A DNA stretch of 63,553 nt, the filler included, from Sphaeroforma arctica JP610 (Eukaryota), in NCBI RefSeq assembly GCF_001186125.1. It is 7 parts of 2 records of this genome, joined end to end, with 100 filler letters (N's around TTAATTAATTAA, not from the genome) between each part and the next. Parts side by side here need not be neighbours in the genome. Positions count along the whole stretch, not along the records: positions 57,570 to 61,146 come from NW_014040521.1; 6 more parts are not named here. The stretch is one strand, 5' to 3'. The position numbers were made by a program, and so were the translations under genes. The number at the start of each line of letters is the position of its first letter. Position 1 is the stretch's first letter. Below the pieces are notes generated by a model, which was given only the letters and a program-made list of their open reading frames with translations, had not been told where the DNA came from and did no database searches. Positions 1 through 63,469 of the stretch are shown one piece after another.

Positions 1-570
1 ATATATTGGCTCGCATTGTATCATGCTTATCAATTTATTGAGCCATGGATCTTTTCTCCGTAATGGGCAACACAACGTGATGGTAGCTTTATGAATATGA
101 GTATAATTTGATAGCTGGGCAATTAACTGCCATGGTGGATTAGCCCACGCATTATGTTTGGAGAGGTCTATTTGAAAGTCGTCTCCCAAAGGATGATTTA
201 AAGTCCTGTAATTCGATAGTTGTGCATTATGATGTGCAGCAAACATATCTATGGTATGTGGCCCAAATATATTTTGAGCCAGTTCAAACCACCTGGGATT
301 ACACTTCCAGTCAGTGGCTAGTAACTCACGTACGGATTTGTTAAAGTTCGATACAAAGCGTGATAACATATCCGGTAAATGGTTATGTATTCTTGGCTTT
401 ATGTCAAAATGAAGCTTTGATATTGTATCATGCCAGCGACTCAGTAATCGTGAGTCGGGTTTCATCTCTTTCATATATTGAAGAGATTTCTGATCACACA
501 TCAGCGTAAATGCTGTTCCGTATAAGTAATCTCGGAAGTGTGTTAGAGCTGCCACTATGGCTAATAGCTC
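1..570 (-). CDS. Pol continuation of element A: RNase H C-terminus, then a Dam-like N6-adenine DNA methyltransferase domain (from ~312 to the window edge)
   Basis: Manual translation gives 190 codons with no stop: ELLAIVAALTHFRDYLYGTAFTLMCDQKSL..HNHLPDMLSRF..TDWKCNPRWFELAQNIFGPHTIDMFAAHHNAQLSNY..DFQIDLSKHNAWANPPWQLIAQLSNYTHIHKATITLCCPLRRKDPWLNKL. IDMFA is at 252..238 and NPPW at 141..130. Confidence 0.85.
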
Positions 571-1991
571 TTGTTAGCAGTTGGATAATTCAACTGTGAA
601 GCATTCATTGCTCGACTAAAGAATTGTATATATCTAGGTTTGATATCTATAACCTGATATAATATTCCTCCTAAGGCTAAGTCGGAGGTGTCCGTTGCTA
701 TCTCATACGGCACGCCATCGACCGGTCCTTGTACAACAAGGGCTTGTTGAACTGCGTGTTTGAGCGCTTTAAATGCGTCATCACATTCTTTATTCCACAA
801 GTCTCCTAGTTTGCCTTTATGACATCTTAAGTGTCCAAAAGGTTTAAGGTACTCAGCTAAATGTAATACTCCATTTGAAAAGAAGTTTACAAACCCACAC
901 ATACTGTTAACATCTCTTCCTGTAGTTGGTGTTTGCCAATCTAACAGGTGTTCTACCTTACCGGGGTCGATTTTAATACCTTCTCCAGATATACGATAGC
1001 CTAAGAGCTGTATTTCGCTCACGGCGAAGTGACGTTTCTTCACGTTAATCTTGTTGAGTCTCTGAAGGACTCGCCTGACTAATGCGGCATGTTCGCCTTT
1101 AGTCCTAGAAAAGACGACTATGTCATCTATATAGACTTGCACGTTAGGCATGTCTGTAAAAATTTCCTCCATTACTTGTTGGAAGAATGCTGGTAAAGAG
1201 TGTAACCCGAAAGGTGCACCTCTGAACCTGTATTGTTTACCTTTCCACGTAAAACTAAAGTATTTACGACTTGGTTCATATACTTGCATTTGATGGTATC
1301 CTTGTGTAAGGTCTAAAGTTGTAAATACTGTAGCACCTTCCATCCTTCGCAGTAGCTCGTTAATACGAGGTAAGTGAAAGCTATGAGTCGGCAATAATTT
1401 ATTTATCGGACTCATATCTAAACACACTCTGACTTTCTTAAATGATCCGTTAGAGTTATGTTGGTCTACGGCTAGCAGTGCCAAGTTAACTGGCGTCTGT
1501 TGATAGATAATTTCTATCACTCTATCTGCTAGCCATTTCTCAATTTGATCTTTTACCACAGCCTCCTGTCTCCAGGATACATAGTTCCTTGAGGGACACT
1601 TTAACTGTGTAAAGTCCACCTTGGGTATGTCAAGGCTGACATACCCGTCGTTAAAACGGAATTTTGCCCAATCTGTGATCTTTATCTTCTTGTTAACTAG
1701 AATCAGATCTATGATTTTGTTCGCAAAGTTAGGTATTAATGCCTTGACTGTGTCTGACGGGGGCTTATTTGGATTCAGACAGTTATCGTCTGACTGATCC
1801 TTTAATGGATCTATGTTATTTGGTAGACCAGTTACGGTTATACCTAGAGTGAATAAATCGCTCATTCCGACTACTATGTCGTACTTCTGTGACATCTCAA
1901 CTATCACAGCTTTGGCAGTGATACTTCTATCATCGGCCAGGGAGATTTTAACATATGTGGCCATGGTATCACACATAAAAAGTTTTATCAT
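561..1991 (-). pseudogene. Pol of element A: aspartic protease, reverse transcriptase and N-terminal RNase H, with a 1-nt frameshift near 571
   Basis: Protease-like CDTMA and DIVVGMSDL. RT motifs LDLTQGYHQ, PFGL and YIDD. Ty3-type RNase H ATDTSDLALGGILYQ..FFSR..NYPTANK. The expected ELLAIV continues in another frame from 570. Confidence 0.9.
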
Positions 1992-3032
1992 CTGTTAAAA
2001 TGAGGTGAGTTGTTTGTGTTCTCCTTTCGATATCTTTCATTAATGCAAAGCGATCAGATATACATGAAATTTCAGAACCAGGATCAATCAACGCAAGGAT
2101 TTTATTTCCATTGCAATATACAGGGATTATTACAAGCTCATCTAAAGAGTCGCTGTATTGTCTGTGTAACGATTGTAATCGGTAGTACCGTCAGTTCAAT
2201 TTACTATCGGGTCTGACGTTACACGATTTAGTGTGGTAGCCATTGGTCTTCTCACATTTATCACATTTTGTATGATAGTGTTTACAAGATTGAGCATGAT
2301 TTCCGTTCCAACAACCGTTAGGTGTTAACTGATACATGTTATAACCGTTAACTGATACATGTTATAACCACATTCCTCATCAGTACATTTCTTAACTTGC
2401 TTGTATGCAGATCCCTTGTGCTACACACTCACCTTCTTAACAGGGCGTGTAAATTGAGTAGATTCACGTGGACGTGTATGTTATGGTCTCTCGTATGAGG
2501 TCTACCTGGATACGTATCCTTGATCGGTCTGCCCCCGCGGTTTCTTAACAACCGCCTTCTCCTGTGAGGTCATTCGCTTCTTAAGAGCGGCTAACTGAGG
2601 TTCTCATTGATCAACTTACTTATGTGCGATGGCTGGTTTGATTCTGATTCGGGTCGGCTCTCTGAGCTTTCCTTCTCATCCTCTCTCTTAAGCGGGTTGT
2701 TTCCTTTATCCGTAATTGGAGTTAGATTCTTCTGAGTGTTCTCATCAGGATTAGTAGGGATCCTCTTAAGCTCTTTCTTCAGGGTACTTCTCTCTTAACG
2801 AAGTATCTTCACCCTTATCTGTTGTATTGTCCTGGTTATTAATACCAGTAGTAATGATTTCGGTTACGGACTGATTGTCCTCTTCTGCGGTCGCGTTAAA
2901 TGCGGCTGTAGCAGCGGCGTCTTTCTCCATCCTTTTCTACGCTTCTTAGAAGGAGTATTGTCTTTCTTGGTCACAATCTTAACTTATGACTGCTAGCTGG
3001 TCTCTTAAGGACTAGCTTGGACCAGAAAATTT

Positions 3033-18593: not shown

Positions 18594-21500
18594 CTACCTC
18601 TTGTATTTATCCTGCATATGCGCTGCTACGAACTCGCGCAACTGGTCCGTAAATACTTGCTTCGCCGCCAGATAGGTTTGGCGGTCTTCCGGCGGCACGT
18701 TTTCCTCCACCCACCACTGCTTAGGCCAATCCTGGTCACTGATGTTACACACATGCCAGCCCGCGCTTTTCAGTAGGTAGTCTTTGGCACAGGTTTTGCC
18801 CAGCAGAGTGCTGTACTCATACACTGCCACGGCACTTGTGAGATCGTCAACGTAATGCGATGTGCGCCCGTTCACCTCAAAGCCGATTTTCAACGCCGGT
18901 AGAGCTATGTCTAAGTCAACACCTGCTTGGGCGTCTAAAAACTCGACCACGACCTCCAAGGCACTATTGTTCTTGAGGCGAGTGTGCGACTGTTTCGGCA
19001 CCTCATTGTCGGTATCCGGGGCGTTGGTTGGGTCAGGGAAGTTCTGTACCATCTGCCGCACTATATCCGTCACACTCTGCTGGAAGTTGCCCATAGTAGC
19101 ATCGTCAGAGATACGCGAGAACCCCATGCGACACTCATCCAGCACCCCATGAAGGGCCCGATGTGTGCTCAGAAGATCATCGTACACGTTCCGCTGTGTG
19201 TGCTTGATGATTTGGAACAAGGTGTGGGTCCGAAGTTTGTTTTCTAACGGTAGCTTGCGCGGCATCAACTGCGCTATATGCGGTGCCACTTCTGCGAGCG
19301 TCTGCGCAAACACCTTCTGCCAAGCACGCACACGCTTCTCCTCTCTGAGCCCCTTTTCCTCCTCACCTGTAGGCCTATCTACTCGTACCTCCACCCTACC
19401 ACCCCCATTCCCTACACCCCCATACTCGTCCCTATCCTTACTAACCTCATCCACAGTCACGTGCTCAGACGTGGGCACACTCAGCAGCGCCAGACTGTGC
19501 AACACCGACAGAATCGGCGCTATCCACCTTGCGTCTGTGGCTGTGTGGCTGGGTGGGGTAGCATGAGACCCCACCGATTGAGACAGAGAGTATATTTTAT
19601 GTGTGTGTGCTCGTTGGGGTGCACCCGTTAATTGTATGTAGTACGACACAGTGGGCAGCACTGCGTCTTGCAAGGTGCGTGTGAGCGCACAGGCGCCCCT
19701 GTCCACGTGTGTGTTGAGGTGCGTATGTCCGGGTGCAGACGAGGCAGGGCTGTCGTATTGGGCCAGCGTGAACTGGTCAATCCTCAGCATAGACACCGCT
19801 CTAAGCATATCGTCCAAATAGTACACCGAGAATTCGTGGTTGGGTAGGGGGAGTGTCCGCGGTCCCATAGCCACAGGTGCGGGTACAGGGGGCACGTCAT
19901 TGAGCCACCCGTGCATTCCTACCAAGTTATTTTTAGCCGCGTATCTGTGGGCGTGCGAGGGTTGGTACAGAATGTTCTTGCTATCGTACAGTGTCTCACT
20001 CACCAACTCGCCTATGGCGTTGAATAGTCCCGTGTGCGAGATACGCATGGCGTGGTACGTTCGCATGATACTGATCACATCCACCATGCTAGTGATAGCG
20101 TCTGTGGCTGCCTTGGGGTTTGGCCGAACCCCGCGTGTGTCTGTGTGCACACACTCCCACAGACCCTGTTCCCGATTGCGTGCTGTTCCTGTACGCACCA
20201 GACCTTCAAGAACATCGCCCAGCGTGCGCAGGATGTATCTGTACTCCTCACGGTAGTTATAGCCACTGCGTGCAAATGCTGTCATCGTCAGCAGCGCTGA
20301 GTCCCTATCTAGCAAGTCTACTATGCCTTCAAACGCCTCGCCTTCGTGGTGATCGTCATCTGCCTCAGCACCTCCAGCAATTCCTCTGTGATAGTCCACC
20401 CCCGGATCTGGCTTCGTGGCATTCGCTCGCTCCCTTCGCTCACTATCATCCATGCTACCATCCAATGAACTGGCAGTATGCTTCGGCGTAGGTACAGATA
20501 CACCCACCAAAGGATCCAGACAGCATGTCATGTAGGTATCATTCCGTCCGTTTCCGTACACAATACGGTTGATCCGCACCGCACACTCTCGCAGCAACGT
20601 ATCACACGGGTGCGCAGCCGTACTGGCACACGTCGTCACCGCCGCTAGCTCATACAGCGACATCCGGTGCCTGAGCCCCACGGCGGTGTCGACCAGAGTC
20701 TCCCACACTTTACCTACCAGCTTCTCGGTCGAGTCATTCATGCGGCCCTTGGTCGATGTGAGCAGCACAATGCACGAGTGCACCAGATCGTTGCTGTACA
20801 TGTCGCGTGGATTGATGGCCTGGTGTTTGTATTGCTCTACCACCGCCTTTCTGTAGGGGCTGTACTTCTCCGTCGTCAGCAGCCGCATGGTCAACGGTAC
20901 TGTGTCGGTGCCTCCATTCCTCACAGCCCTGCGACTACCCGGGTGTCGCACCATGGGCATGGTCTGTTGTTGGACGTTGTACCTCGCCAACCCTATCTCT
21001 AGCTGCTTGTTGCGGCTGGCATCGACAAACCCGGGTGCATATGATCCCAACTGTTTGGCCGTTTCTCGGGCTGTGTAGAGCGACAGCCTCTTCGCAATAC
21101 CATACCCGTCATCCCAGCTCCCTTGCAGCCACCATTCATTCGGCTGCTGTCCTTGCTGATAGTACGCTGTAGGTGTGTGCGTGTTGGTAGGTGTATATGT
21201 AGGTGTGTGTGTGTTGGTAGACGTATCTGTACGTGTGTGTGTGTTGGTAGGTGTATATGTAGGTGTGTGTGTACTGGTAGGCGTATCTGTAGAGGTGTGT
21301 GTGTTGGTAGGTGTATCTGTAGTCAATTGATCCTCCCTTCCCTGCCTGCCTGCGGGTGTTTCAGTATGTACAGCCACTTGCGCATGTGAGGAAGGGTCCT
21401 GCATGCGTACTGCAGTGTGCATATCCGCTTGCCAGTGCTTCTCGTGAGTCTCCCCATGCATACACGTGCTCACCTCTGTATCATCCGTAGCCACAGGTAG

Positions 21501-22409
21501 CTCCGTCTCCAACTCCGCCAATTGTCTATCCAACGCCTCTCGCTGGCGCTCCAGCACCGCACGCGCATCGTCTCTGGCGTCTAAGTACCGAACATTCTGT
21601 TCGCGGAACATGTCCTGGCTGATATCGCACCAGTGCACCCTCACCACAGGCTCCTGCAGGATACGCCTCTCCTTCCACGCCTTCATACGCTCATACTTCC
21701 ACCGTTGCCACCGCACACGTTCCTTCTTGTCGATCTGGATACTGTACCAGTCATTCACCCCGCTCTTCAGCCTGCGTGTGCGGTCGTAGTTGGGCGGGGT
21801 CAGCTTGTTGTGTGGTTTGTGTGCCTTTCCAAACGGATTGATCAGTGTCCCGCTCTGTTGTAACTTCTCCTTCTCCGTCCACTCTATCTTGAGCTGCCGT
21901 GCCTTGAGGCTCAGTTTCTCTGCATCTACTATGTACGGTACATCTGCTTGCCCAGTCCTTTTACGCTGTGGATTCGTGTGTGGGGTTCGCGTTGTCGTCT
22001 CTGTGTTGTGCCGTGTTGAGGTGTGTGCGTGTGTGTGATCCTTTGTTGGCTTTGATTGATGTATTGCTGATGTGTGTGTGCCGGTGTGTACTGCATCTGA
22101 TTCATACTGTGATTGTGTGTGCACTTGTTTCTGTTCCCAATTTGGTTGACGTGTGGCTGTATTATATGAGCTATTAAGTATTTTATCTGTCACATGCTGT
22201 GGTGTTGTGTGCGTATGTTTCAGAGTGTCATGTCTTGTACGCTGTGCTGATGTGTGTGCATGTCGCAGCGGTGCAAATGCGCTCGATTGTGATGGACAGT
22301 GTGCAATTGTAAGTGGTGGGCTGCAACTATTCGGGTACGTATAGCTTCCAGCTGTTTTCATGCACCCTTTTATCATGGAGCATCTCCTCAAAGATATATA
22401 ACGTCGCAT
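18594..22409 (-). CDS. Intronless 1271-aa protein with a C-terminal RAP domain (FASTK-like), probably a mitochondrial RNA-binding/processing factor
   Basis: Long ORF. The C-terminal VVEFLDAQAGVDLDIALPALKIGFEVNGRTSHY..KDYLLKSAGWHVCNISDQDW fits the RAP pattern (D-I-A..iEvnGp.Hy..k.rlL...Gw.v..i...eW). The N-terminus is Arg/Ser-rich and acid-poor. A TPTNTH repeat lies at ~21170-21320. Confidence 0.8.
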   Translation of the reverse strand: MRRYISLRRCSMIKGCMKTAGSYTYPNSCSPPLTIAHCPSQSSAFAPLRHAHTSAQRTRHDTLKHTHTTPQHVTDKILNSSYNTATRQPNWEQKQVHTQSQYESDAVHTGTHTSAIHQSKPTKDHTHAHTSTRHNTETTTRTPHTNPQRKRTGQADVPYIVDAEKLSLKARQLKIEWTEKEKLQQSGTLINPFGKAHKPHNKLTPPNYDRTRRLKSGVNDWYSIQIDKKERVRWQRWKYERMKAWKERRILQEPVVRVHWCDISQDMFREQNVRYLDARDDARAVLERQREALDRQLAELETELPVATDDTEVSTCMHGETHEKHWQADMHTAVRMQDPSSHAQVAVHTETPAGRQGREDQLTTDTPTNTHTSTDTPTSTHTPTYTPTNTHTRTDTSTNTHTPTYTPTNTHTPTAYYQQGQQPNEWWLQGSWDDGYGIAKRLSLYTARETAKQLGSYAPGFVDASRNKQLEIGLARYNVQQQTMPMVRHPGSRRAVRNGGTDTVPLTMRLLTTEKYSPYRKAVVEQYKHQAINPRDMYSNDLVHSCIVLLTSTKGRMNDSTEKLVGKVWETLVDTAVGLRHRMSLYELAAVTTCASTAAHPCDTLLRECAVRINRIVYGNGRNDTYMTCCLDPLVGVSVPTPKHTASSLDGSMDDSERRERANATKPDPGVDYHRGIAGGAEADDDHHEGEAFEGIVDLLDRDSALLTMTAFARSGYNYREEYRYILRTLGDVLEGLVRTGTARNREQGLWECVHTDTRGVRPNPKAATDAITSMVDVISIMRTYHAMRISHTGLFNAIGELVSETLYDSKNILYQPSHAHRYAAKNNLVGMHGWLNDVPPVPAPVAMGPRTLPLPNHEFSVYYLDDMLRAVSMLRIDQFTLAQYDSPASSAPGHTHLNTHVDRGACALTRTLQDAVLPTVSYYIQLTGAPQRAHTHKIYSLSQSVGSHATPPSHTATDARWIAPILSVLHSLALLSVPTSEHVTVDEVSKDRDEYGGVGNGGGRVEVRVDRPTGEEEKGLREEKRVRAWQKVFAQTLAEVAPHIAQLMPRKLPLENKLRTHTLFQIIKHTQRNVYDDLLSTHRALHGVLDECRMGFSRISDDATMGNFQQSVTDIVRQMVQNFPDPTNAPDTDNEVPKQSHTRLKNNSALEVVVEFLDAQAGVDLDIALPALKIGFEVNGRTSHYVDDLTSAVAVYEYSTLLGKTCAKDYLLKSAGWHVCNISDQDWPKQWWVEENVPPEDRQTYLAAKQVFTDQLREFVAAHMQDKYKR

Positions 22410-23143
22410 TTTGGCCGTGTATACTATAACTAATAATCCTACTGCCGATTCACCTTAATCCCACGAAGACGCTGATGTCGACGAGAACGGTTTGAATGCG
22501 CTTATCCACATGTACCTATAGCCAGAATAACTAGGTATGAGAAGGTAAACACCAGTTACAGCTATATGCATATCAAATCGAGTAGTTAAATAGCACCACC
22601 GTTATTAGGCTAAGTTTTAATGATCACTGACGCGATATAACACACAGCCACTGTTGAGATGATGTATCGGCTTCTCTGACGTCCGCCTGCTCATTACCGC
22701 GGCATACACTAGTTGCACAATTATGTGTGGTTCGACAATGAAAACACACTACTATGTACACGTATACATATGCATATTTATATTGATGCGTGTGTATGTG
22801 TATGTATGTGTATATATACTACTACATATCTATGTATATACGAATACCACTAAAACAAAATACATTGATAGCATACAAATGATATAGAGTGTAATTGCAC
22901 GAAAGTATGAGCCATGGGCCCGTGGTGAGTCGGTGACTGCGGGTGATCTGAACATGTCATCACTTTTGTGTGCATTGCGCGGGAAAGTACCGAACGTTCT
23001 TTCATAAGTTCGCGTGAAAAGAAAAGTAAAATAAACAAAAACGCAAACGCATATTTTATATATACACACACGGGATAGGCAACCAAAAAGCGTAAGTTGC
23101 GCTGGTATACTCACACACACGTCACACGTAAGTGTATATAGGG
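22410..23143. promoter_or_regulatory. Short divergent intergenic region, putative bidirectional promoter
   Basis: Head-to-head ATGs at 22409 (-) and 23144 (+), about 730 bp apart. No specific elements identified. Confidence 0.4.
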
Positions 23144-28588: not shown

Positions 28589-30566
28589 GAATTGACTTGA
28601 ACTGGAATACGAGTTAGGACTCGATACCGTATAGTTCATATGAGGAACATTATATATATATATGTGTGTGTGTATGTATGTATATGTAGTTTACTGAACC
28701 AAAGAGTGCTCGACTTGGTAGACTTTGCGTACAAAACAAAGCAGCATCTGCGCACGGTATTACACGTGTGCATCTTGCAGGAAACAGAGCGGTTGGGGTG
28801 ACAGACACTGTTCATTTGCGACTTCCACCTTGAACGGTATCTCTGCGTGGATCTGTACCTGTGTAGATTTAGGGCGAAAATTATATAACGATAAAAGAAT
28901 AGTTGGAAGCGTTGTATTTATATACTCGCAGCCTTTACTTTTCGTATTGTCTTTAGGACTCGTGGTTTCCATAGAAACGACATGCAAGTGGACAATAAAA
29001 TTTAATAATGATGTACGCTGGCCTGAGAGACTATAATATCAGCAGCAGACTCATTCCGATGAGATCGTACATTGACTGATACTGCCTCGTCCCGTGACGT
29101 CTCTGACACATCTCGTTAGAATACTTTTTGTCGTCCGTTGCATTTTGTACTTCAATTAGCTAGCCTTGTACACGCCTGGCTATAGCCGCCAATGAAAGCC
29201 GTGGGAGTACCCTAGCTAACCCTTCAAACCATGGTCCAGAGCGGCCGGTAGTGCGCGTGCATCCCGTCGGCAGCTACATCTATTAGGGCTCCGTGAAGCT
29301 CACTGGCAATTGGGTGTTTATACTTTAGTTAGACTCTCTAGGGTGTGGCAGAATTCTCAGTGATACAGACAGATGCTCTATGTCTGGCATGGCGCATGCG
29401 GTGCATTTGGCGTCGTAGTACGGGGTTATATGGCTTTAGTAGGAGTGCCAAGTTGGAGAAGGGTAGGGGCAATGTAGGGGCCTACCCTCACAAGAGCTTC
29501 ATCAGGAACCCCGAAGACAAAGGGCAACCCGGAAAACAGAGCTGAAACAAATCACGCTCTTTAAATATTTTTGACTCGTTCAATTTTCTGTATGATATAA
29601 TCATGATATCAGGAGGTTCAAGCAGCACATGCGAATTGAGCAGCAACCGGGGAAGGCTAGTAGGGCGTTGCATCTAGTGGAATTCTATCATGGACGCTTA
29701 AAGATATATGAACCTCAAGACCCGTGTCAACTACTTGTTTTAATGAGCATTTTCGAACTAAAATGTAGTAGTAAGAGATACTTTCAACTGTGGTTATAAT
29801 TATATCATCTGATAGAACAATATAGGGCAAACGTACACGCTCAGTTGTGATAAACTAACCAGCGATCTTTATATTGAACATATATTTGTCGTAATAATGC
29901 TGTGGGCTTATATAAATAACTTTACAATAAATACATATATCCCTCTAGGTCCTAGGAGACGTTGATGAATAGTTTTCGAGGAGACTCAATCCACAGGATC
30001 TGACATATAGTCTCCTACGACATAGAGCAGATCTGAATCTTATATGTATATGACTTTGGGACATATCATATGTAGCCTCCTGAACAATGAACATCGCCTT
30101 CTTGATAGACATGAATCTCTTTTTTTCAACAGGGGGCTATGAATTTGATACTTCCGACAAACCCTAAAACTCAGGGTTTGTGCTACGCAAACTTATATTT
30201 GTCGCGCAATTTTGGGGGGGGGGGTTTTAAATCATGAAGTGCCATAGTAGTCATACTCTAAATATACACTTAGAGCGTGTTGCTATACTTGCTATCGACT
30301 CTATATTTACATCCGGAAAAGATAAGAAAGATACCTTTATAGGCTTAGCCTCGTTTCAATTGATGCAATTGAGTTTTAGTACGGTTGTGACTACGCAATA
30401 TTCACCGTGCTGTTAAATAGTATACTTAAAGTTACTGATTTACCTTGGCTGCGTTCCAAGTTCCACAAGGTAGACGATCACACAACCCGAGACCAATTCA
30501 AGGCCTGCATTTGTACCAATCCATTAGCATAGAACATGAACACCCACGGCTGAGTCAGAGTCAGAG

Positions 30567-31454
30567 ATGGATGCGCTTGCCGTCAGAAAAGCCCATTGGC
30601 AGAAGATATGGTCTATCCCTAACACACCCTGGACCATCAAAGGGTATTCGCGCAGTGCATACCGTACCGGTTTTATCATCCCGGAATTGAATGTGATGCT
30701 AGACGCAGGTCCGCAACACTTCAGCACGCCGCACACTGTACTGGTCACACACGCACACATTGATCACATTGCCAACCTGCCACTCACTCTTATAGGCGAT
30801 GCGGAAAGTGGACTAGTAACGGATGTGTATGGACCGCAAGCAGCGGAGAAATACATTAGGAACTATATACATGCCATGTTTGAGGCGAACGCGATGCAAG
30901 AGATTGATGAGATTGATTGGTATAGATACAAGGGTGTTAGTGCACGCGATGTGATTCGCATGCCCATCAAGAAGACTCTTTTAGAGATGCAGGTGTTTGA
31001 ATGCGACCACGCAGTACCTACAGTGAGTTATGGGCTGAGCGAAGTGAAGCAGAAGCTCAAGCAGGAATATCTTGGTAAAGATGGCAAGGTTATAGCTCAG
31101 CTTAGAAAGGACGGTGTCAGCATCACTCAGGAGGTGGTGGTGAAACGGCTTGCGTATGTCTGTGATACGAGTATACGTGTATTCGAGATGAATCCGGGTA
31201 TTCTCGAATACCCAGTGATATTCATTGAGTGCACATTCTTGTTCGACGATGAGCTGCAGAACGCCATGGATACTCAGCACATACACTGGCAGCAGTTGAA
31301 GCAGTATGTAGAGACGCATAGTCATATAGAGTTTATGCTGTTCCACTTCTCACTGAGGTACAAGGATAGTGAGATCAACAGCTTCTTCCGCGAGATCACA
31401 GCGAATGGGTTGAGCAATCTCCGGTGGTGGACTAATCAGCCCGATGCGCAATAG
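30567..31454 (+). CDS. Intronless short-form (TM-type) tRNase Z / metallo-beta-lactamase fold nuclease
   Basis: KGYSRSA (EGxSxxG-like), MLDAG, THAHIDH (HxHxDH), DHAVP, KL-motif arm KQKLKQEYLGKDGKVIAQLRKDG, AYVCDT, IECTF, HIH and LFHFSLRY. Confidence 0.88.
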   Translation: MDALAVRKAHWQKIWSIPNTPWTIKGYSRSAYRTGFIIPELNVMLDAGPQHFSTPHTVLVTHAHIDHIANLPLTLIGDAESGLVTDVYGPQAAEKYIRNYIHAMFEANAMQEIDEIDWYRYKGVSARDVIRMPIKKTLLEMQVFECDHAVPTVSYGLSEVKQKLKQEYLGKDGKVIAQLRKDGVSITQEVVVKRLAYVCDTSIRVFEMNPGILEYPVIFIECTFLFDDELQNAMDTQHIHWQQLKQYVETHSHIEFMLFHFSLRYKDSEINSFFREITANGLSNLRWWTNQPDAQ

Positions 31455-53356: not shown

Positions 53357-53976
53357 TATGTACACTCACGTACTTTTTCAACGAAAGGCCAGTAGTTGCT
53401 TAAAAATGCCTGACAAAATAGAGTACTTATGCACGCTATCTGATAATGTGGTAATCCGGGTGACCTTAACAGAGTTCAGAATATATTTAAATAGCCCTAT
53501 CATGCATTCCTGGATGTACACCCTTGGTCATTGCAGGAGGCCGGTGAAGGACACCATTGGCAGAAGACCAACTCAATCAAAGCTGTGAAACTTGAGAAGT
53601 CTCAAACTACTTCGCTGCAGTTACATGTGCGCTATGATGCGCTCTTCTATTATTAATTGCTACTATAAACTACTGCAATAATGGTACAAATACCATTGCA
53701 AATAGCAATAAGTATATTAAATATATGTATTGCTATAAATATACATAAATTGTTAGCATAGCCTCCTGGTTGAATTTTTAGTACAGACTTTTTTAGTACA
53801 GACTACAGACTCACAGAGACCACACTCTAAAATACGAACAGATTCGTTTGGTTTTGTGATTTGTCGTCAACTCGTCATTGTTTACACAATGTAGCCGCCA
53901 TTGTCGGGCATTGCCCATATAAGGATACTTTTCTATACGTAAGGCTATAGCCTGAAGCAAGAGACCTACTAAAGAA

Positions 53977-54306
53977 CACTTTAGGATCGCTTGGCCTGCA
54001 GAGTCCAATTGTCCACTTACAGTCTTTACACTGCGTATTTTAAAGTACAACACTTTTAGGATCTCTTGGCCTACAGCCTACAGTATTACAGTCCTATTGT
54101 CCACTTACAGTCCTTACACTGAGTATTTTAAAGTACAACACTTTTAGGATCTCTTGGCCTACAGCCTACAGTATTACAGTCCTATTGTCCACTTACAGTC
54201 CTTACACTGAGTATTTTAAAGTACAACACTTTTAGGATCTCTTGGCCTACAGCCTACAGTATTACAGTCCTATTGTCCACTTACAGTCCTTACACTGAGT
54301 ATTTTA
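53977..54306. repeat. Tandem repeat, 88-bp unit, about 3.7 copies
   Basis: Near-identical units start at 54051, 54139 and 54227, with a diverged copy from ~53977. Confidence 0.92.
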
Positions 54307-55213
54307 ACGATGTGTGGCCTACGGCCTGACAAATTACAAGGAGACACGGATTATTTATCAAGTTATCAAGTTGTCAGTGAGTAGCATACATAAGTTGTCA
54401 GTAGCATACATAGCTTACCAGTAGCATATGTACGTGCCATCAGTATACATACGTCAGCAACATACACACGTTGTCAATGGTATACATAAGTTGTCAGTGG
54501 CGTCATGGGGATTGTGCGTTTAGGAGCGAATGCAGAGTTTTATGTCTATTAGGCAACATATTGTTTTGTTTGACCTATTCGAATAGCACATATTTTCTGT
54601 TCTGAAACACAAAATATCGTTATACTTGAACTGTTCAACCGTACATTGTATTGTTCTGCCATGCAATGTATCGTCCTGTTCGGCCCATCTAAACACGTAT
54701 TCGTTCTGTCCTGTAGTGAACCTGTGTAGAAGAGGGAAGTGTATTTATATAGCTGCTGCTGTCTGCAACGCTGATACAGCCCTTTTTTCTTCTTCTTAAA
54801 TGTGTGTTTAAGACTACAAGTGCACGTAATTCTGAAGATGGCAACTTCAAAGCTTTCAAAATAACCCCGAGTAGCCAGTAGATCTTTGTTGTCGTAGTAC
54901 CTGTATATACTAAAGAACTCTAAGGTGGTAACTTCGATGAGTACACTTTAAGGCTCTTAAAGTAAACCAATCAGCCAGTAGATATGTATTTGACGTAGTA
55001 CGTTTATAAATTGAAGCTGTGAGGCGATAGCTTTCGGCTGGTGCGTGGAATAATTCTGGGGGTGGTTTTCACATGCGGATATTCACTCTTTCGTGGGCAG
55101 TCGAAGGTGCAGGCTTAAGTGTTGACTAGAGTGATACTAAATGCTACAAATAGTTCGTTGCTATGCCGCGGGACAGCCGTTCTCAAATGAACATATCTTT
55201 ATAATGATGTATA

Positions 55214-56617
55214 CTACATGTACTGAGATTTCAGACTGGATATAACTTGCTTAACCGCCGTGTAATCCCAGGTTTGTAATCGGTTCTGCAGCAGGAATCG
55301 TGGGTCGCCGGTCGCTACGTCCTTCGCCTTCTCGCCACTGTCCAATCACGCGGATATAAATCATAGTAAGTAAGCAGGCGCAATCGAATATTGTGTGGCA
55401 ACTTTGCAATATATACCTCAATCACCCTTAACCCTATCCAAAAAAAAACCCCAGCATCGATATTATAGTAGCTCGCGATCTAAAACTGTACGTACCTGTT
55501 ACTTTTCATGTCTATGTCTGCGCCAGCTTCAAGTAAGTAGCGCATCGCTTTTGTGTGTCCGTTAATTGCTGCCGTGTGAAGCGGTGTGAGACCCTGTGAC
55601 AGCAACAAGAGGATCAATGCACATTTCATGCGCTCTTATGCTCGGTAATTATTCAATCACAAAGAATTAATGTGCAAAAGTTGTGTGCGAGGGCTGCCGA
55701 TGCCTATAATGCCGACAACTAGCATATACGGCTTTTGTCATGTCGGTGGGACTTACTCCGTGTGATTGTGCGTTCGGATTTGCACCAGTGGCCAACAGGT
55801 CTTTGATCGATTTGCAGTTGTTGTTTTTAGCAGCCCAGTGTAGCAGCGTATATCCCCTGCGATATAAAAATGGTAGGGCATGTGTATCCGGTGAGAAATC
55901 AAAGGACAATTTCCACCAACTATCGCACCAAGCACATGTATAGTAGCATACTGATCACAGATCAAATCTGTTTAATTGATTCGACATTGAAGCACGATTT
56001 GAAGTATACGGAACGGCTTACCAGAAAAAATCACGTCGTTGCGACAAATTGGCGTCCTCGAACAGCATGCGACGAAGAGCTTTTGGATCATTCTTTGCTG
56101 CATTTATCTCCGCCTGAAATCAGAACGGCATTCACAAAACTATTAGCTGAATCACCTACCATGTGCCGATGTCATTCATGTATACACTGAAACACTACTT
56201 GGTGCTAGATTTTGCATTGAAACAACGGAGTGCAATCGAAAGGCCTGATAGCTAGAATGATAATGTTGTGCGAGTCGAATCACTGTGTATAAATAAACAG
56301 CTGCCACGTGCATACATGACTGTTCAATGCTCATCCACAATGAACCTCTGAGCGAAAGCAAGACTTTATGGGTATCAACATCATTTTCCTACTGCTGAAG
56401 ATATAGCAGCTGTCACTGTCTCGATTGGACTTACCGCAAGCAACATATTCACATCCATTTTCTTCCTTAACCTCTCTTCTTGTCTGACATTTTTATCTTG
56501 TTGCACCTCAGACACATCGCTTGTGATGGAATCTGGAAACCTTTCCTTCTTTACATTGTCTATAACAGTCAAAGCGTCGTCCAAGACGACTTTGAACATT
56601 TCTCGGTTAAGTGACCC
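55214..56617 (-). CDS. Ankyrin-repeat protein, SOWAH-like, partial
   Basis: Exons 56113-56022, 55856-55757, 55593-55496 and 55337-55214 splice in phase to RRDFFWGYTLLHWAAKNN..NPNAQSHGGLTPLHTAAINGH..DMKSNSGEKAKD. A probable upstream exon is at ~56617-56393. Both ends are uncertain. Confidence 0.7.
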
Positions 56618-57120
56618 TAAGATAGAGTGAGAGAATCTAATTAGAATGCAACAGTGATTTGGGAGTGTAGGTTTTCCGAGGGTGTACATGAAGACATCGG
56701 AGACAGATCATCGCACTCGTGTATTGAACTGCACTAGTATTTACTAGAAGACATCGACAATCTCATAGCACTTAGCTGCAAGCCTCACTATTAAAATAGT
56801 GGATTTATAACTTGTTGCACCTCAGACTCGTCGTTTGTGATAGAATCCGGAAATATTCCCTTCTTTACCTTGTCTATTGTTTATGAGAGTCAAGGTATCG
56901 TCCAAGACGACTTAATATATTTCTCGGTTAAGTAACTCTTTGATAGAGTGAGGAAAAGCTAATCAAAACGCTAGAGTGATCTGGGATCATAATTTTTCAG
57001 AGACCGTACATTAAGACGTCAGAGACAGTGTGTCGCACTCGTATTTCAATTGCAATAGTATTTACTATAGATATATAGAACCTTGCACCGCATAGCTGCA
57101 AACCTCACTACTGAAATAAT
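56498..57120. repeat. Diverged ~310-bp tandem duplication containing a pseudo-exon
   Basis: 56498-56800 matches 56811-57120. The second copy has an in-frame TAA (LNREIY*) where the first reads LNREMFK. Confidence 0.8.
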
Positions 57121-60100
57121 CAAATTGCAAAGTGCTGAGCGACTCACCAAAAGATGTCATACGAGTATGAGCTGAATGAATTAGGAACTATGATACAAAA
57201 CAGATTGCGCAACTCGTGCATAGCCAGCACAGAGGACAGTAGACATCTCACATATACTAAATAACAAACAATGAGCGCAAACACTCTGAAGTAAACAACG
57301 ACAAGTATCACAACCAGACGCGTCCCATACAAGCACTATGAATGAATGATAACTCAGCTCAGAATTGCATTTCCAATGAGCAAAAAAAAACTAGCTATAT
57401 CAACACTTGGACAAAGGAAGAATATAACTGCAAACAGAACGTCAAAATGTCACAAATATACAAATACTTNNNNNNNNNNNNNNNNNNNNNNNNNNNNNNN
57501 NNNNNNNNNNNNNTTAATTAATTAANNNNNNNNNNNNNNNNNNNNNNNNNNNNNNNNNNNNNNNNNNNNGTCGACTAGTTTCCTATCTATTTCCGTCTCG
57601 TCCAGGGCATTCCACTGGTCATACCACACCGCGAGGACATGTATCTACACCGTGGCAAGCGTATAGTTGGTATCCAGCCTTGGCCATACACGCTCGTCGC
57701 CCACCTCAGGGGCGCCCAACAGCTATTTATCGTCCCTAACGCCTTTTTGTAAGACAAAGGGCCAATACATGTGCAACTTCTCTCTAAGTATCGATATACA
57801 AGGCACTCATGTACTTTGGTCAACGAGACAAGGTAGATGCAATCATTAAAGCAGATAAATTGCCTGATAGAAGTGATGGTCACTTATCAGATATGACACA
57901 AAACGTGTTGTTCTCTACGGAAGCATCTATAAGAGCAGCAGCCAAAGTACAGGCAGACCGTATGTACAGAGAGCGTAAAAGATACAACTCAAACACGGCC
58001 ACTCATAGCCAAACACAGAACGCCACTATTGCTGCACCCAAGCGTCACAAACCAGGCAGTGGCACACCAAGACAGACCCATCCAACGAGACAGCCCCAAG
58101 AGAAGAAAAGGGCGCGCGAAATACGCGCATGTTCTTATTGTAAGGTGTCAGCAGCCCAATATCGATTTTGCCAATGCCTTACGAAGACATTAAGTCAGAA
58201 CAAGAAGGCTGATGAGCATGCCAAGAACGATGTGCAAGTAGCAAGACTATCCACTACCTCACATGACCTCAGGTAAAGTAGAAAAGATAACAAGTAGCGA
58301 TGAGTCCCGAAACAACTGACGGGTGGAAGGATTGACCTCGCTGGCAGGCTAAATGTAAATACAGATAAAGAACCGTTGTTGATAAATGCGGACGATATAA
58401 ATTATCAATCATTATCATAGCTTCCCGCACCACGAGACGAAATATTACACATCGAGGTACAAATTAATGACAATACATACAGGGCACTTGTATACTAAGG
58501 TGCACAACGACCGTGTATGGACAACAGTATAGTAGCTGAAATATATCTCTCAGACAGAGCGCAACCGGGCTACATACAATTCGCACAAACAGATGCGAGA
58601 ATACAAATAACAGGGTCAACCCAAGTTTGTGACATCAACTATGGAGGAAGGAAAGCCTCTCTGTTTTTCGAATTGTTGGACCTACCAGACAAGAAGAAAC
58701 AAATACTTCTAGGTATGGACATACTTCCATACATAGGCATATACATATCAGGATCAATAAATTCACCTACACCAACAGATGCAAAATGAAAATCACTACT
58801 CACACCACACGAGGAAGACCCAGAGCACGAACAAGAAGGTTGTAGATATTCGCTTGCAGACCTCCTACAGACTAAAGCGAATATACTTCCTGACGTACAT
58901 TGCAACCTACCAGGCACTAGAGTCACTGTATCTGAAAATGAGATCAATGTCAGACAAATGAGGCACGCCAAGGTAAATTTTGGACCACATAAGTATATTC
59001 CATAAACGTTTTTAAAACATAAATGTGAAGAGGTGGCTTTCATACAGATGGTCATAGTTACAAACGAACGACACCAACAGCCGTGAACTTACCGTTGTTA
59101 TCTACTGGGGAACATGACCAAGCAGGTCTCCTCAAGAAAGTGAGAATTTTTTTTGGACTTACGGAGATCAATTATCAATTCGAGCAAGATAAGTTCGTGC
59201 TACCAAAAACAAAGAAAGTGATACATAACCTAGAAAAGCCAAAATTATTCATATTCTCGTGGAGAGGAGCGCAATAGTCGTTCAAGTCAGCGCCGTTCGG
59301 CTTACACTCACTCACAGCACAATTCCACAGAGTCATGGTCATAAACATCAAAAGAGTGCAAGTGTATGTAGATGACATAGTCATTGCAAGTCTCACAGAT
59401 GAAGAATATCGCAAGACAGTTCGTGGAGTAACCAAACGGTTGAACGGAGCGAACATCTGACTCAATCCCAACAAATATGTCTTCGCGGTCAAGTGGTCAA
59501 CATTCTAGGTGTGAAAGTAGCTACACAAGGATTTAGAGCTGATCCTCAAAAACTAAATCGAATGATGGGCTGGCCACTACCCAGAACAAAAAGAGATCTG
59601 CACGGAGCGGTGGGACTCGCAAACAATATGCGTGACAAAATCCTCAACTTTGCCCACACAACTAAACACTTCCGCAACCTAATGAAGGCAAAATGAACCA
59701 AAATATATCTATGTTACAGACACCGGAACTCAAAGAAATAGGAAGAACTCAAAGAAGCCATCACGTGTTCGGCGACACTAGCATACCCAGTCGATGGGTA
59801 CCGTTTTAGATCATGAACAAGGTCATCGATGGAGTCAGGAGAGATATTCTCTACTTCTCTAAAGACCCGAATCCAGTCCGACAACGCTATGGTACAAACA
59901 CAACTGAGCTGTTAGCACTGGTATACAATCTGGGTCATTTCTTTGAAAATATCAAAGAAGGAGACATAACACTATGGACAGATCATAAGGCGCTCACGCA
60001 AATGAACAACAAACAGAAGTTACACTCAATACTAGCCAAATGAATAGCTAAAACATTCGACCACCATTTTTTTATCATACATGTCCCAGGCAAGGACAAT

Positions 60101-60242
60101 TAGATGGCAGATATGTTGTCGCGTCTACACGAAGACACATTTAATACCAAAAAGACGCGAACAAAACAACTCACAGCAGCCAAGAGTACATCACATTGGG
60201 AACAAAAATGCCTATAACCAGATCAGCGATAGACTGCATGTA

Positions 60243-60632
60243 ATGTTACACCCCATATTCTATAAAAAAAAGCTGAAAGACAGTTTGGGAAGTTCACAAT
60301 AGATCTGTTGGCATCGGCACACAATGCATATACAGATAAATACTACACACACAAAACCAGAATGCGCTCCTATATACGTGAGCATAGGAAGTAAATACAA
60401 AACTCACCATGGGAACTCATACCCGATGTCCCTGACAAAGTCATTGAAGAGGCAACTCGCATCACGATATGTATTCCATACTACCCCAATGCAACAAACG
60501 TGGTTTCCAAAATTCCTGTCTTTATTAGAAGAAGATCCGATGCTAGTGGAAGACAAAAACAACACGCTCCTCAAAGAAGGCACGAAAACACGTGGCAAGA
60601 CCCTATGGGGTGTCACATTGGTAGCAAAGATT
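60243..60632 (+). pseudogene. Frameshifted Dam-like N6-adenine DNA methyltransferase domain in pol of element B
   Basis: Across frames: MLHPIFYKK / ERQFGKFTIDLLASAHNAYTDKYYT (ID at 60299) / QNALLYT* / NSPWELIPDVPDKVIEEATRITICIPYYPNAT (NSPW at 60401-60412) / TWFPKFLSLLEEDP. Colinear with the element A domain. Confidence 0.75.
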
Positions 60633-62172
60633 CCATACTTTGATACAACGCGGGAACAACCTGCCCTACACGTCTCAGCATTACAAACAGTTAGCCCTGG
60701 AGATGCATCAAATGTGACTAACTACGAGACACGTATCAACATCATCGAGCAATACCAAAACTTGGGACATTACACACCTGCAAAATGGTAGATAAATTGC
60801 AAGCAGATGGACACGATTGGCCACAACTCCAGCAATATGTTGTACATAGATACATTGAAGGATGCTACCGTGTCTCAAAAATAAGATTCACAAAAAGGGA
60901 GCTTATCCCTTACAGTCAATCACAGCCGCATTACCAGGCGACAAAATCCAAGTGGACACTATTGACCCACTACTGGACTAAAACAGAGGACACACATATG
61001 TGCCAGTATGGCTAGATGTGCACTCATCATATGTCATACTCAGACCAATGATGGACAAATCAGCAGCAACTGTAGCACGAACGCTGGTACCAATAGTGTG
61101 TGAACATGTGTTCTGCCACTTATCATACAAACAGATGTAAACTTCGNNNNNNNNNNNNNNNNNNNNNNNNNNNNNNNNNNNNNNNNNNNNTTAATTAATT
61201 AANNNNNNNNNNNNNNNNNNNNNNNNNNNNNNNNNNNNNNNNNNNNCTACAAGCAAACATGCGCGCAGTATGTGACCGAAAATACCAAAAGAAGTATGTA
61301 CACTTCCAGGAACGGGACATTTCATGGTCCGTTGCCAAGGTGGAATGAACAAGATGACAGCACCACATGGCGGACCATATTGAATGGTATACAGGGAGGG
61401 CATCGGGTATTTTGTCTTAACCTTGATGGGGATTATGAAGCGCAAATATCCTAACTCGGTCAGTGATGAGCTAATTGGACTCGTAAAAAAGGCCAATACT
61501 CCGCATGAATTTAATTCCAACAGCCAAGTACAACCATCCGAGAAGACTCAGTTCTCCTCGATACTCGACCATAGGCCATTTATCCAAGGTGACGGCTTGC
61601 AGGAGTACCTACTGCAATGGACAGATAGAGAGCGTACCTGGACACACGAATCAGACATCGCATATTTTGATGTTCTTACACTATACCGTCAACGCACTCG
61701 ACGCAAACGAAGGCAATCAACACCGAAGAAATCAACAGCAACGAGCACTGATGAAAGATCGGCGAGGAACAGAAAGCGCACGAGACGGGGGGACTTGACC
61801 AAGTCACTTTAATACCGAGGGACACTCCCACTCTTCTTGCCTTGAAGCAGGCTCCGCCCACACGCCAGAGGGATAAGGACTAAAGACTTGATTGTAGAGT
61901 CACTGGTGATATGCTTTTTCCCAAGCCAAGTTGATATCAACCGAGAGCAACGATCCAAACTGAATTTGATGAGCACGGCTGAGAACCCCCGTCACAGTAT
62001 ATTTATTCAATATGGTAATATGTAAGAATAGATAATAGTGGCAGGTTTTTCATCTTAAGCCCCTAAGGGACAAGTTTTTCCTTTTGCAAAAACACCAATC
62101 TTTAGATAGTCTAGAACTGTAAGATATCGCTTTCTACTTCTACGCCGGCTAAGTAGCATAAAGTTGGGAGGC

Positions 62173-62547
62173 TGTAGCATCTAGGAATCAGATTATCAAC
62201 CGAATCCAAAACCCAAAACCTTAGAATATTTAAGTATTGAGTTTTGGAAATAATATTTAAATATTCTTGATATCAGAGTCATCAGCGATATTAGCAGTAG
62301 AACGGGTAAGTTATACCGGGACTCCGCGTGTGAGAAAAACACTCAAGTAGAAACGTGAGTCCAGTGAACTAAAAAACACAAATAAAGACTCAGTTCGGTT
62401 CTCTCAGACTAGGGACTTTTCCTAGCAGAAATACCCATACTTGAGAAGAAGTCTATTGAATCCTTTGACTCGTACCTTTCAGCTACTTTTTATACTCTAC
62501 GACTGTCGTGTCGGGTTATACTGCCTTCTCTAAGGCTGTATGCTACA
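62173..62547 (+). repeat. 3' LTR of element B (375 bp)
   Basis: Perfect 8-bp inverted termini TGTAGCAT..ATGCTACA, preceded by a purine-rich tract (AAGTTGGGAGGC), with internal AATAAA at ~62381. Confidence 0.7.
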
Positions 62548-62641
62548 TTCTATGTGAAGTAGCATTTCATTCATCGTGCTATATGAATGAATTGTTCGTT
62601 AGCTCTAGAGCAGGACTTGGTATACCATTTAACATATTAAT

Positions 62642-63469
62642 TGTAGCGTTTGTTCTGTATTATGTAACAATCGCTAAGTTTCAATGTGCGTTATTATGAT
62701 TCCACGGGATCTATTCAAGGATCTATTCAGACACCTATGGTAGTCCCTTAAGTCGTAAGCTTTCTGCCCTACGATACTTGTACACGTCCTTCATCCATAC
62801 CATATGTGCATCAGCATCCCAGAACGAACAGCCTGAGCGGGTAACAACGACAAATGGTAGAATACCCCTAATATAAGCGAAACTTTGACCCACTCCCCTG
62901 GTTCACAGCATTGTACTATTAAAAGGCCATTACATTCGCCCAAATAGTTATATATAAATATCAAAGCTGGATGTCTCAACTGAAAATAGATTTCTAGGAA
63001 CTACTGGCGTTGCCAAGTTTATTGTCCGAGAAGCCAACTATGCTGTCAGTCTGATGTGGACAAGCCGGTAAATCATGATGAGCGATTAGGAATCGGCTAA
63101 AAAATACAAACGTGGCTAGAGGCGACAGGAACTTTTTCGTTTCTTCTAAAAATCGGATTTTGTATCTTCCCGCGACGAAAAGAAAAGTTTCGTTAATCGC
63201 GGAAATGAAATTGTAAACAAAAATCCGTTCGACAAATTCAGTACTGAGAAGATAATGTATAGGTAATGTATCGGCCTTTAAAACCCCCATTGTATTGCTG
63301 ATACAAGAGACAAACATAGCTTTAATGATTGACTACTTTCGCAAAAAATCTAATAAACAGACTTACAAAATACGAGTATGTAACAACTTAAGCCCTTAAT
63401 ATTTTCTCGTCAGATCAAGTCTACATTAATGCGGTACCAGTGAATACCCCGGGGGTCGTGAACGCTACA
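62642..63469. mobile_element. Possible solo LTR or terminal-inverted-repeat element (828 bp)
   Basis: Perfect 9-bp inverted termini TGTAGCGTT..AACGCTACA. No target-site duplication seen. Confidence 0.4.

What the first reader, a model, noticed from the sequence alone, without database searches (positions are those of the whole stretch)
60243..60632. A second, diverged Gypsy element carries the same methyltransferase between RNase H and integrase, plus a chromodomain
Seen: in element B, about 130 codons between MADMLSR and the integrase GH motif reconstruct across frameshifts to MLHPIFY..FGKFTIDLLASAHNA..NAL..NSPWELIP..ITICIPYYPNATWFPKFLSLL. This is colinear with element A, with NSPW probably a mutated NPPW. 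Here the downstream integrase, chromodomain, PPT and TG..CA LTR are all visible, which fixes the architecture as PR-RT-RH-MTase-IN-CHD. A and B are far apart in sequence yet share unusual RT features (NLALLAVDQH..KKVRV versus NLPLLSTGEH..KKVRI; APFGLHSL). Inference: an old clade of methyltransferase-bearing chromoviruses that pairs a DNA-mark writer with a chromatin reader, rather than a one-off capture.
Basis: partly seen in the sequence, partly recalled or inferred. Interest (0 to 1): 0.88.

Follow-up and report, generated by a model that had tools for sequence, protein, structure and literature searches.

The report
Methyltransferase Gypsy element with hidden chromodomain
This is a broken copy of a jumping gene, likely from a single-celled relative of animals, whose intact sisters carry an adenine-methyltransferase-like domain and a diverged chromodomain; a 2026 preprint already described this family but reported no chromodomain in it, and the enzyme's activity is still unproven.

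Summary
60243-60632 is a frameshifted Pfam-Dam-type (DIRS/PCIF1-like) adenine-methyltransferase domain between RNase H and integrase of a dead Ty3/Gypsy copy. Elements A and B fall in one clade in both the RT and the MTase tree, with Abeoforma proteins (and, in the MTase tree, a Sphaeroforma arctica protein): an old, vertically inherited lineage. This is the ichthyosporean DAM-LTR lineage of a May 2026 preprint, so the architecture is known; the scan also met DAM-LTRs in other genomes. Two additions: the preprint says this lineage lacks chromodomains, yet it has a sub-threshold one (profile versus HP1, E 4e-10) with an incomplete aromatic cage; and the predicted methyltransferase fold is closest to the RNA-cap enzyme PCIF1, so the substrate may not be duplex DNA. 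The 'writer plus reader' function is unproven.

The parts
57579..57722 (+). C-terminal third of a Dam-like MTase from a third, different family (not part of element B)
   Evidence: HMM 17.5 bits, E 1.3e-6; best match 48% over 42 aa to P0028
57788..58276 (+). Probable 3' part of gag of element B (inferred from position and a Cys cluster)
   Evidence: ORF; no Pfam match; multi-copy depth starts near 57810
58331..58996 (+). Start of pol with aspartic protease, broken by stops
   Evidence: 61% to P0014 residues 5-228; P0014 has gag-asp_proteas E 3.9e-11
59047..59493 (+). Reverse transcriptase, dead: stops, frameshifts and a 22-codon deletion that removes the SKLDL motif
59740..60124 (+). RNase H (Gypsy type), broken
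   Evidence: RT_RNaseH E 1.2e-10 for 59810-60040
60243..60632 (+). Dam-like (PF05869, DIRS/PCIF1-type) N6-adenine methyltransferase domain, pseudogenised; motif I IDLLA, motif IV NSPW; frameshifts near 60245, 60268, 60500 and a compensating pair between about 60350 and 60400, with stops
   Evidence: 63% (81 of 128) to the intact P0170 domain
60730..61146 (+). Integrase zinc-binding region and first half of the catalytic core, cut off by the spacer
   Evidence: 80% to P0014 residues 891-972; rve E 0.016
61147..61246 (.). Assembly spacer (N44-TTAATTAATTAA-N44) standing for about 410 missing bases
61250..61500 (+). Integrase C-terminal helix and GPY-type module
   Evidence: P0014 residues 1110-1287; GPY motif read
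61537..61710 (+). Diverged chromodomain with one of three aromatic-cage residues (W)
   Evidence: Pfam Chromo E 0.0021, below cut-off; profile A2 versus HP1 E 3.9e-10; model pLDDT 83, Foldseek rows are chromodomains
61782..61793 (+). Polypurine tract
   Evidence: sequence
61796..62501 (+). Likely 3' LTR (TG start; family boundary behind 62500; terminal CA altered in this copy)
   Evidence: multi-copy depth and loose ends at 62500; no second copy in the window
1..2142 (-). Element A: PR-RT-RH-MTase of a second family of the same clade, cut by the window start inside the MTase; NPPW intact

Best explanation
Element B is a dead copy of a multi-copy Ty3/Gypsy family of the ichthyosporean DAM-LTR lineage, whose intact members encode protease, RT, RNase H, a DIRS-type adenine-methyltransferase domain, integrase and a diverged chromodomain in one protein, and likely use the methyltransferase inside the particle to put 6mA on their own new cDNA or RNA-DNA intermediate. 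Shown here: domain identity and order, clade membership, retention of NPP(W/F), and death of copy B. Inferred: the host is a Sphaeroforma-like ichthyosporean; the domain came from a DIRS-like donor once at or before the base of this clade; after integration the host AMT1 system would keep the 6mA and hold the insertion in open chromatin (the preprint's model); the chromodomain would tether integrase to chromatin without canonical methyl-lysine reading. My odds: identity about 0.9, mechanism about 0.5.
For: Intact sisters P0014, P0170 (1288 aa) and P0171 (995 aa, begins within RT) carry Dam between RNase H and rve in one ORF. The 4 best RT-RH hits of 120 listed all carry PF05869 and none of the other 116 does. 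RT-RH tree: 13 of 13 chosen rows incl. A, B and Abeoforma P0007 form one group at 98/97. MTase tree: 20 rows form one group at 100/99, with sub-groups that mirror the RT tree. 18 of those 20 keep NPP(W/F); the exceptions are B (NSPW) and P0004 (CPPW). The MTase is conserved above the adjoining MTase-IN linker: P0014 vs P0170 79% vs 41%; vs P0171 59% vs 32%. The AlphaFold model (pLDDT 93.6) has a class I SAM-dependent fold whose best hits are N6-adenine methyltransferases. The nearest named MTase relative of B is S. arctica SARC_09892, 70 of 117 identical. The only metagenome locus found (1 of 241 pattern matches) is DIRS-like, with the domain right after RNase H. The preprint (whole text read) reports more 6mA and more expression for DAM-LTRs than for other LTRs in S. 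arctica and A. whisleri.
Against: No activity is shown. The preprint's E. coli expression of such domains gave no rise in 6mA. Iyer et al. (PMC4738411, passages) judged DIRS MTase domains likely inactive and derived from PCIF1. The best structural match is the RNA-cap enzyme PCIF1/CAPAM (Z 10.8, rmsd 2.9, 132 aligned), followed by rRNA methyltransferases (Z 9.9-8.3), ahead of T4 Dam (Z 8.1) and E. coli Dam (Z 7.9). The 6mA enrichment could follow from transcription and host AMT1 alone. The host name is inferred from relatives; no genome was held.
Confidence: 0.6

Rival explanations
1. The domain acts on RNA, as its structural relative PCIF1/CAPAM does: it N6-methylates the cap-adjacent or internal adenosines of the element's genomic RNA, or of the RNA strand in the hybrid, to favour stability, packaging or reverse transcription.
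For: PCIF1 is the top hit in both fold searches (Foldseek E 1.2e-4, TM 0.70; VIA Z 10.8). Two relatives (P0020, P0116) also match Pfam PCIF1_WW. Iyer et al. place DIRS MTases in the PCIF1 clade. The negative result on E. coli DNA fits a non-DNA substrate. The domain is fused right after RNase H, where RNA is handled.
Against: Z 10.8 is tied (within 1) with DIMT1 at 9.9, identity is 14%, and a shared fold shows no substrate. The 140-residue model covers only part of PCIF1 (482 residues). DAM-LTR insertions carry more DNA 6mA than other LTRs. The preprint's tree derives these domains from prokaryotic DNA methyltransferases.
Confidence: 0.22
2. The domain is a non-catalytic nucleic-acid- or SAM-binding module kept for a structural role in the particle or the integration complex.
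For: Iyer et al. call DIRS copies likely inactive. The heterologous assay was negative. P0004 is an intact ORF with CPPW, and several DIRS-like rows vary at the motif.
Against: 18 of 20 clade members keep NPP(W/F), and the motif-I acidic residue is kept in the alignment, across families only 36-41% identical in RT-RH.
Confidence: 0.15
3. The MTase segment in B is a separate nested insertion, or the chromodomain beyond the spacer belongs to another element.
For: A 100-nt spacer cuts the integrase. No listed contig piece spans a whole laid stretch, and the two sides were laid separately. A piece of a third family's MTase sits just upstream, so the locus is a graveyard of fragments.
Against: P0014, P0170 and P0171 hold both parts in one ORF, and P0014 aligns collinearly to both sides of the spacer. 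A 927-nt contig identical to 60108-61034 joins RH end, MTase and IN. Even if the two sides were two copies, both are of the same family.
Confidence: 0.03

Closest known systems
Ichthyosporean DAM-LTR lineage (Fernandez-Moreno et al., bioRxiv 10.64898/2026.05.21.726589; whole text read, supplements closed)
   Same: Ty3/Gypsy pol with a DIRS-type Dam domain; the clade here contains Abeoforma whisleri proteins and S. arctica SARC_09892; NPP triplet kept.
   Different: The preprint says the lineage lacks chromodomains. Here all 7 scanned members match Pfam Chromo weakly (best E 2.9e-5, weaker than the preprint's 1e-5 cut), and their profile finds HP1 at E 4e-10.
Chlorophyta DAM-chromovirus-like clade and EpiLTRs (same preprint)
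   Same: Dam domain plus C-terminal chromodomain in a Gypsy pol.
   Different: Different hosts; chromodomains called by Pfam screening there; EpiLTRs add a cytosine DNMT, which no Pfam scan of P0003, P0004 or P0014 showed.
DIRS tyrosine-recombinase retrotransposons with RT-RH-MT pol
   Same: Same methyltransferase family at the same place, right after RNase H (L001).
   Different: This element has an aspartic protease, a DDE integrase, a PPT and Gypsy-type RT; the eight DIRS-like RTs are split off at 100.
Plant group II chromoviral chromodomains (PMC3605345, passages read)
   Same: First and third cage aromatics missing in the B family.
   Different: That paper says group II was found only in plants; here the RT lies outside the plant/fungal/fish chromovirus group, so the loss is likely convergent.
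PCIF1/CAPAM cap-specific adenosine N6-methyltransferase
   Same: Nearest solved fold; same clade according to Iyer et al.
   Different: 14% identity, a much smaller domain, embedded in a retroelement polyprotein; substrate untested.

Membership tests
Ty3/Gypsy LTR retrotransposon | pol order PR-RT-RH-IN with a DDE (rve) integrase | tested here: met
   P0014 Pfam order and collinear alignment to B
Ty3/Gypsy LTR retrotransposon | RT groups with Gypsy, not DIRS | tested here: met
   61 Gypsy rows vs 8 DIRS-like rows split at SH-aLRT 100
Ty3/Gypsy LTR retrotransposon | Paired TG..CA LTRs, PBS, TSD | tested here: inconclusive
   Only a likely 3' LTR and a PPT; 5' end missing; no second LTR copy in the window
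Ichthyosporean DAM-LTR lineage | Dam (PF05869) domain in pol between RNase H and integrase | tested here: met
Ichthyosporean DAM-LTR lineage | Dam domain groups with Abeoforma/Sphaeroforma/Pirum DAM-LTRs | tested here: met
Ichthyosporean DAM-LTR lineage | Lacks a chromodomain (descriptive trait in the preprint) | tested here: not met
   A diverged chromodomain is present, also in Abeoforma P0007, so the trait looks like a threshold effect rather than a different family
Ichthyosporean DAM-LTR lineage | Insertions enriched in 6mA and expressed | not testable with these tools
   No methylome; no holder on record as RNA
N6-adenine methyltransferase (Dam PF05869 / PCIF1 clade) | Class I SAM-dependent fold with motif I and an NPP(Y/W/F) catalytic motif | tested here: met
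   Met for the family (model of P0170; 18 of 20 motifs); copy B has NSPW, frameshifts and stops
N6-adenine methyltransferase (Dam PF05869 / PCIF1 clade) | Methylates adenine in DNA | not testable with these tools
   The preprint's heterologous assay was negative
Chromoviruses (canonical Tf2-like/plant/fish group) | Chromodomain at the integrase C-terminus after a GPY/F module | tested here: met
Chromoviruses (canonical Tf2-like/plant/fish group) | RT inside the chromovirus clade | tested here: not met
   Not nested in the 10-row group (100/99); exclusive union rejected, AU p 3.6e-5; a wider union with five neighbours not rejected, p 0.34; groups were named after a first tree was seen
Group I (HP1-like) methyl-lysine-reading chromodomain | Three-residue aromatic cage (Y, W, Y) | tested here: not met
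   B family: T/S/H at the first site, W kept, the GY loop with the third site deleted; A family has F in place of W (cage definition from PMC3605345)

The most novel reading that the evidence does not exclude
The ichthyosporean DAM-LTRs are an old chromodomain-bearing Gypsy lineage of their own, outside canonical chromoviruses, and their 'Dam' domain is a mobile PCIF1-like enzyme that methylates the element's own RNA or RNA-DNA hybrid rather than duplex DNA. That would explain the failed E. coli assay and give retrotransposons a self-encoded RNA-marking step.
Probability: 0.2. Interest if true: 0.7.

Novelty: new member of a known kind. Interest (0 to 1): 0.3.

Why it matters
The architecture itself is already in a May 2026 preprint, so the headline is not new. 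Two points add to it. First, the lineage described as chromodomain-free has a chromodomain below the Pfam threshold, so the Dam-plus-chromodomain pairing is more general than reported, and the cage-less form gives a case outside plants for asking what such domains bind. Second, the predicted fold points to PCIF1 and rRNA methyltransferases before DNA Dam enzymes, which names a concrete substrate panel (capped RNA, hybrid, ssDNA) for the open question of what retroelement 'Dam' domains do.

Tried and rejected
No whole genome was held, so no genome-wide copy count was made. Word-indexed searches with the A-family MTase found only P0003 and P0004; the HMM search of cluster representatives was needed (2387 hits at E 0.001, 150 listed), and I Pfam-scanned 28 of those 150. 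Sequence search of the MTase profile against PDB found nothing meaningful (2 rows, E 2.5). The chromodomain model had no Foldseek match at E 0.001 or better (best 0.014, probability 1.00). An HMM of five Pfam-passing outgroup chromodomains hit 9 of 12 in-clade C-termini (5.7-18.8 bits; reversed control max 0.7) and missed P0003, P0004 and P0014, so the A-family domain stays doubtful (5.2 and 9.9 bits with the in-clade profile, reversed max 4.5). The protein atlas did not answer. No RNA holder listed. Dinucleotide ratios of A, B and a host gene showed no clear ApT or GATC signal. P0024 was dropped from the RT tree (no alignable envelope), and the upstream fragment from the MTase tree. 'DIRS-like' labels in the MTase tree are mine, from length and position; only 5 of 27 were Pfam-scanned, 8 were placed by RT, and P0095 is a dUTPase-Dam fusion. 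Literature searches; the search Sphaeroforma + chromodomain + LTR gave 3 papers, and in the two I opened I saw no report of a chromodomain in these elements. The preprint's supplements are closed and could bear on that point. PMC12695648 and PMC4007536 (passages) added nothing on this element.

Full report
Setting. The window is a scaffold-like sequence with six 100-nt spacers (N44-TTAATTAATTAA-N44) and several plain N runs. No whole genome was held. A window protein lies on a public record of 207,750 nt, much longer than the piece between its flanking spacers, so the spacers are likely gaps within a scaffold. Element B occupies the piece 57570-61146 and continues after the spacer at 61247. 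Element A lies at 1-2142 on the minus strand and is cut by the window start.

Observation. A search with A's methyltransferase segment found two unbroken polyproteins, P0003 and P0004, with RT, RNase H, Dam, H2C2 and rve in that order. Aligning the P0003 domain to 60150-60700 with frameshifts allowed gave a score of 162 against a shuffle mean of 30.6 and maximum of 42 in 60 shuffles. One stop-free piece of B matches Pfam Dam alone at E 1.5e-4. The domain is real and spans 60243-60632.

Copy B is dead. Against its closest intact sister P0170 it is 76% identical over RT-RH (285 of 375), with 6 frameshifts, 7 stops and a 22-codon deletion in RT, and it has several more breaks in and after the MTase. 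It belongs to a multi-copy family: 768-1350 contigs per run lay on 57570-61146 in four runs, with summed depth over the MTase in the same range as over RT and integrase (depth is not a copy number). A 927-nt contig identical to 60108-61034 in three of the four runs confirms the RH-MTase-IN join in this copy.

The spacer. The gap is closed at family level: an HMM search of 1.84 billion representatives returned P0014, which aligns collinearly to B on both sides and shows about 137 codons missing. P0170 and P0171 are further unbroken sisters. A purine tract at 61782-61793 is followed by TG at 61796, and sister contigs diverge behind 62500, which gives a likely 3' LTR of about 700 nt. No 5' LTR or TSD is available.

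Clade. A and B are 36% identical over RT-RH (125 of 343). In a careful RT-RH tree of 38 rows, 13 Dam-bearing rows including A, B and Abeoforma P0007 form one group at 98/97 (a 69-row quick tree gave 16 rows at SH-aLRT 94). In a 55-row MTase tree the same set, plus S. arctica SARC_09892, forms a 20-row group at 100/99, and its sub-groups (A family, B family, P0009/P0012/P0013, P0006/P0007, P0028/P0071) mirror the RT tree. This supports one old, vertically inherited lineage. Other Gypsy-Dam proteins do not follow it: P0040, P0044 and P0124 fall among DIRS-like domains, and P0033 has a canonical chromovirus RT, in line with repeated capture. The single metagenome locus found was DIRS-like, with the domain at the same place after RNase H. 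The host is inferred to be a Sphaeroforma-like ichthyosporean from these named relatives.

Prior art. bioRxiv 10.64898/2026.05.21.726589 (found; whole text read; supplements closed) describes DAM-LTRs, with five lineages, among them an ichthyosporean one from Pirum, Abeoforma and S. arctica that 'lacks chromodomains', and an algal DAM-chromovirus-like clade that has them. It reports more 6mA and more expression for DAM-LTRs in S. arctica and A. whisleri, a negative E. coli assay, and the model of 6mA laid on replication intermediates and kept by host AMT1. PMC5890265 (passages) covers Dam in DIRS and cytosine methyltransferases in Gypsy. Three earlier notes of this scan report DAM-LTRs in other genomes; I did not check them.

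Chromodomain. B's C-terminal segment matches Pfam Chromo at E 0.0021, below the cut-off; its 11 PDB hits at E up to 10 are all chromodomain proteins, best E 0.075. All 7 in-clade segments scanned match Chromo, best E 2.9e-5, and their profile finds HP1 at E 3.9e-10, with chromodomain proteins filling the 60 rows shown of 85. The model (pLDDT 83.4; three strands and a helix) matches chromodomains at TM 0.6-0.74. An independent outgroup HMM hit 9 of 12 in-clade C-termini and missed P0003, P0004 and P0014. The preprint's 1e-5 cut likely explains its negative call (inference). By the HP1 alignment, the B family keeps the central W, lacks the first aromatic and has lost the GY loop with the third; the A family has lost the W as well. 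That resembles plant group II chromodomains (PMC3605345, passages), so canonical methyl-lysine reading is unlikely. By RT the clade is not nested in the Tf2-like/plant/fish chromovirus group; an exclusive union is rejected (AU p 3.6e-5), a wider union with five neighbours is not (p 0.34). These groups were named after a first tree was seen.

Methyltransferase. NPP(W/F) is kept in 18 of 20 clade members, and the domain is better conserved than the linker that follows it. The P0170 model (pLDDT 93.6) matches PCIF1/CAPAM best (Foldseek E 1.2e-4; VIA Z 10.8, rmsd 2.9, 132 aligned), then rRNA adenine methyltransferases, then T4 and E. coli Dam (Z 8.1, 7.9). Iyer et al. (PMC4738411, passages) already put DIRS domains in the PCIF1 clade and thought them inactive. 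The fold supports N6-adenine chemistry but leaves the substrate open.

Mechanism and verdict. Most likely the intact elements package the domain as part of Pol and mark their own cDNA or hybrid with 6mA, which host AMT1 would then maintain, while the chromodomain tethers integrase by a non-canonical contact. Domain content, order, clade and decay are shown; catalysis, substrate and targeting are inferred. The finding is a real but decayed member of a described lineage. What it adds is the overlooked chromodomain and a sharper substrate question. Interest 0.3.

Noticed in passing
window 57579-57722 (+): C-terminal third of a Dam-like MTase from a third family, directly upstream of element B's gag at a contig start; best match 48% over 42 aa to P0028.
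   Followed up: partly
window 16124, 31669, 35122, 44772, 57470, 61147: Six 100-nt spacers N44-TTAATTAATTAA-N44 (stops in all frames); anything read across them is not contiguous sequence.
   Followed up: partly
window 30543-31451 (+): Intronless 303-codon ORF with a metallo-beta-lactamase fold (Lactamase_B_2 E 2.4e-7), RNase Z-like by my reading, in a genome whose other genes look intron-rich; could be virus-derived.
   Followed up: no
window 18594-22454 (-): Intronless 1271-aa ORF (P0005), a public singleton on a 207,750-nt record; its C-terminus looks RAP-domain-like by recall, not tested.
   Followed up: no
window 62970-63082 and 3205-3319: 116-nt inverted match at 74% between the sequence after B's LTR and the region upstream of element A's pol; a further repeat with raised depth lies at about 62630-63020.
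   Followed up: no
proteins P0023, P0068: Gypsy-like polyproteins with an Exo_endo_phos domain followed by Dam upstream of RT, a different order from DAM-LTRs here, on a very long RT branch.
   Followed up: no
protein P0095: dUTPase fused to a Dam domain of the same family.
   Followed up: no
protein P0033: RT inside the canonical chromovirus group but Dam domain next to the ichthyosporean clade, suggesting a domain swap between Gypsy lineages.
   Followed up: partly
window 53900-54307, 56489-57118, 12565-13379: Tandem or direct repeats: 88-nt units, a 318-nt pair at 76%, and 40-nt units.
   Followed up: no
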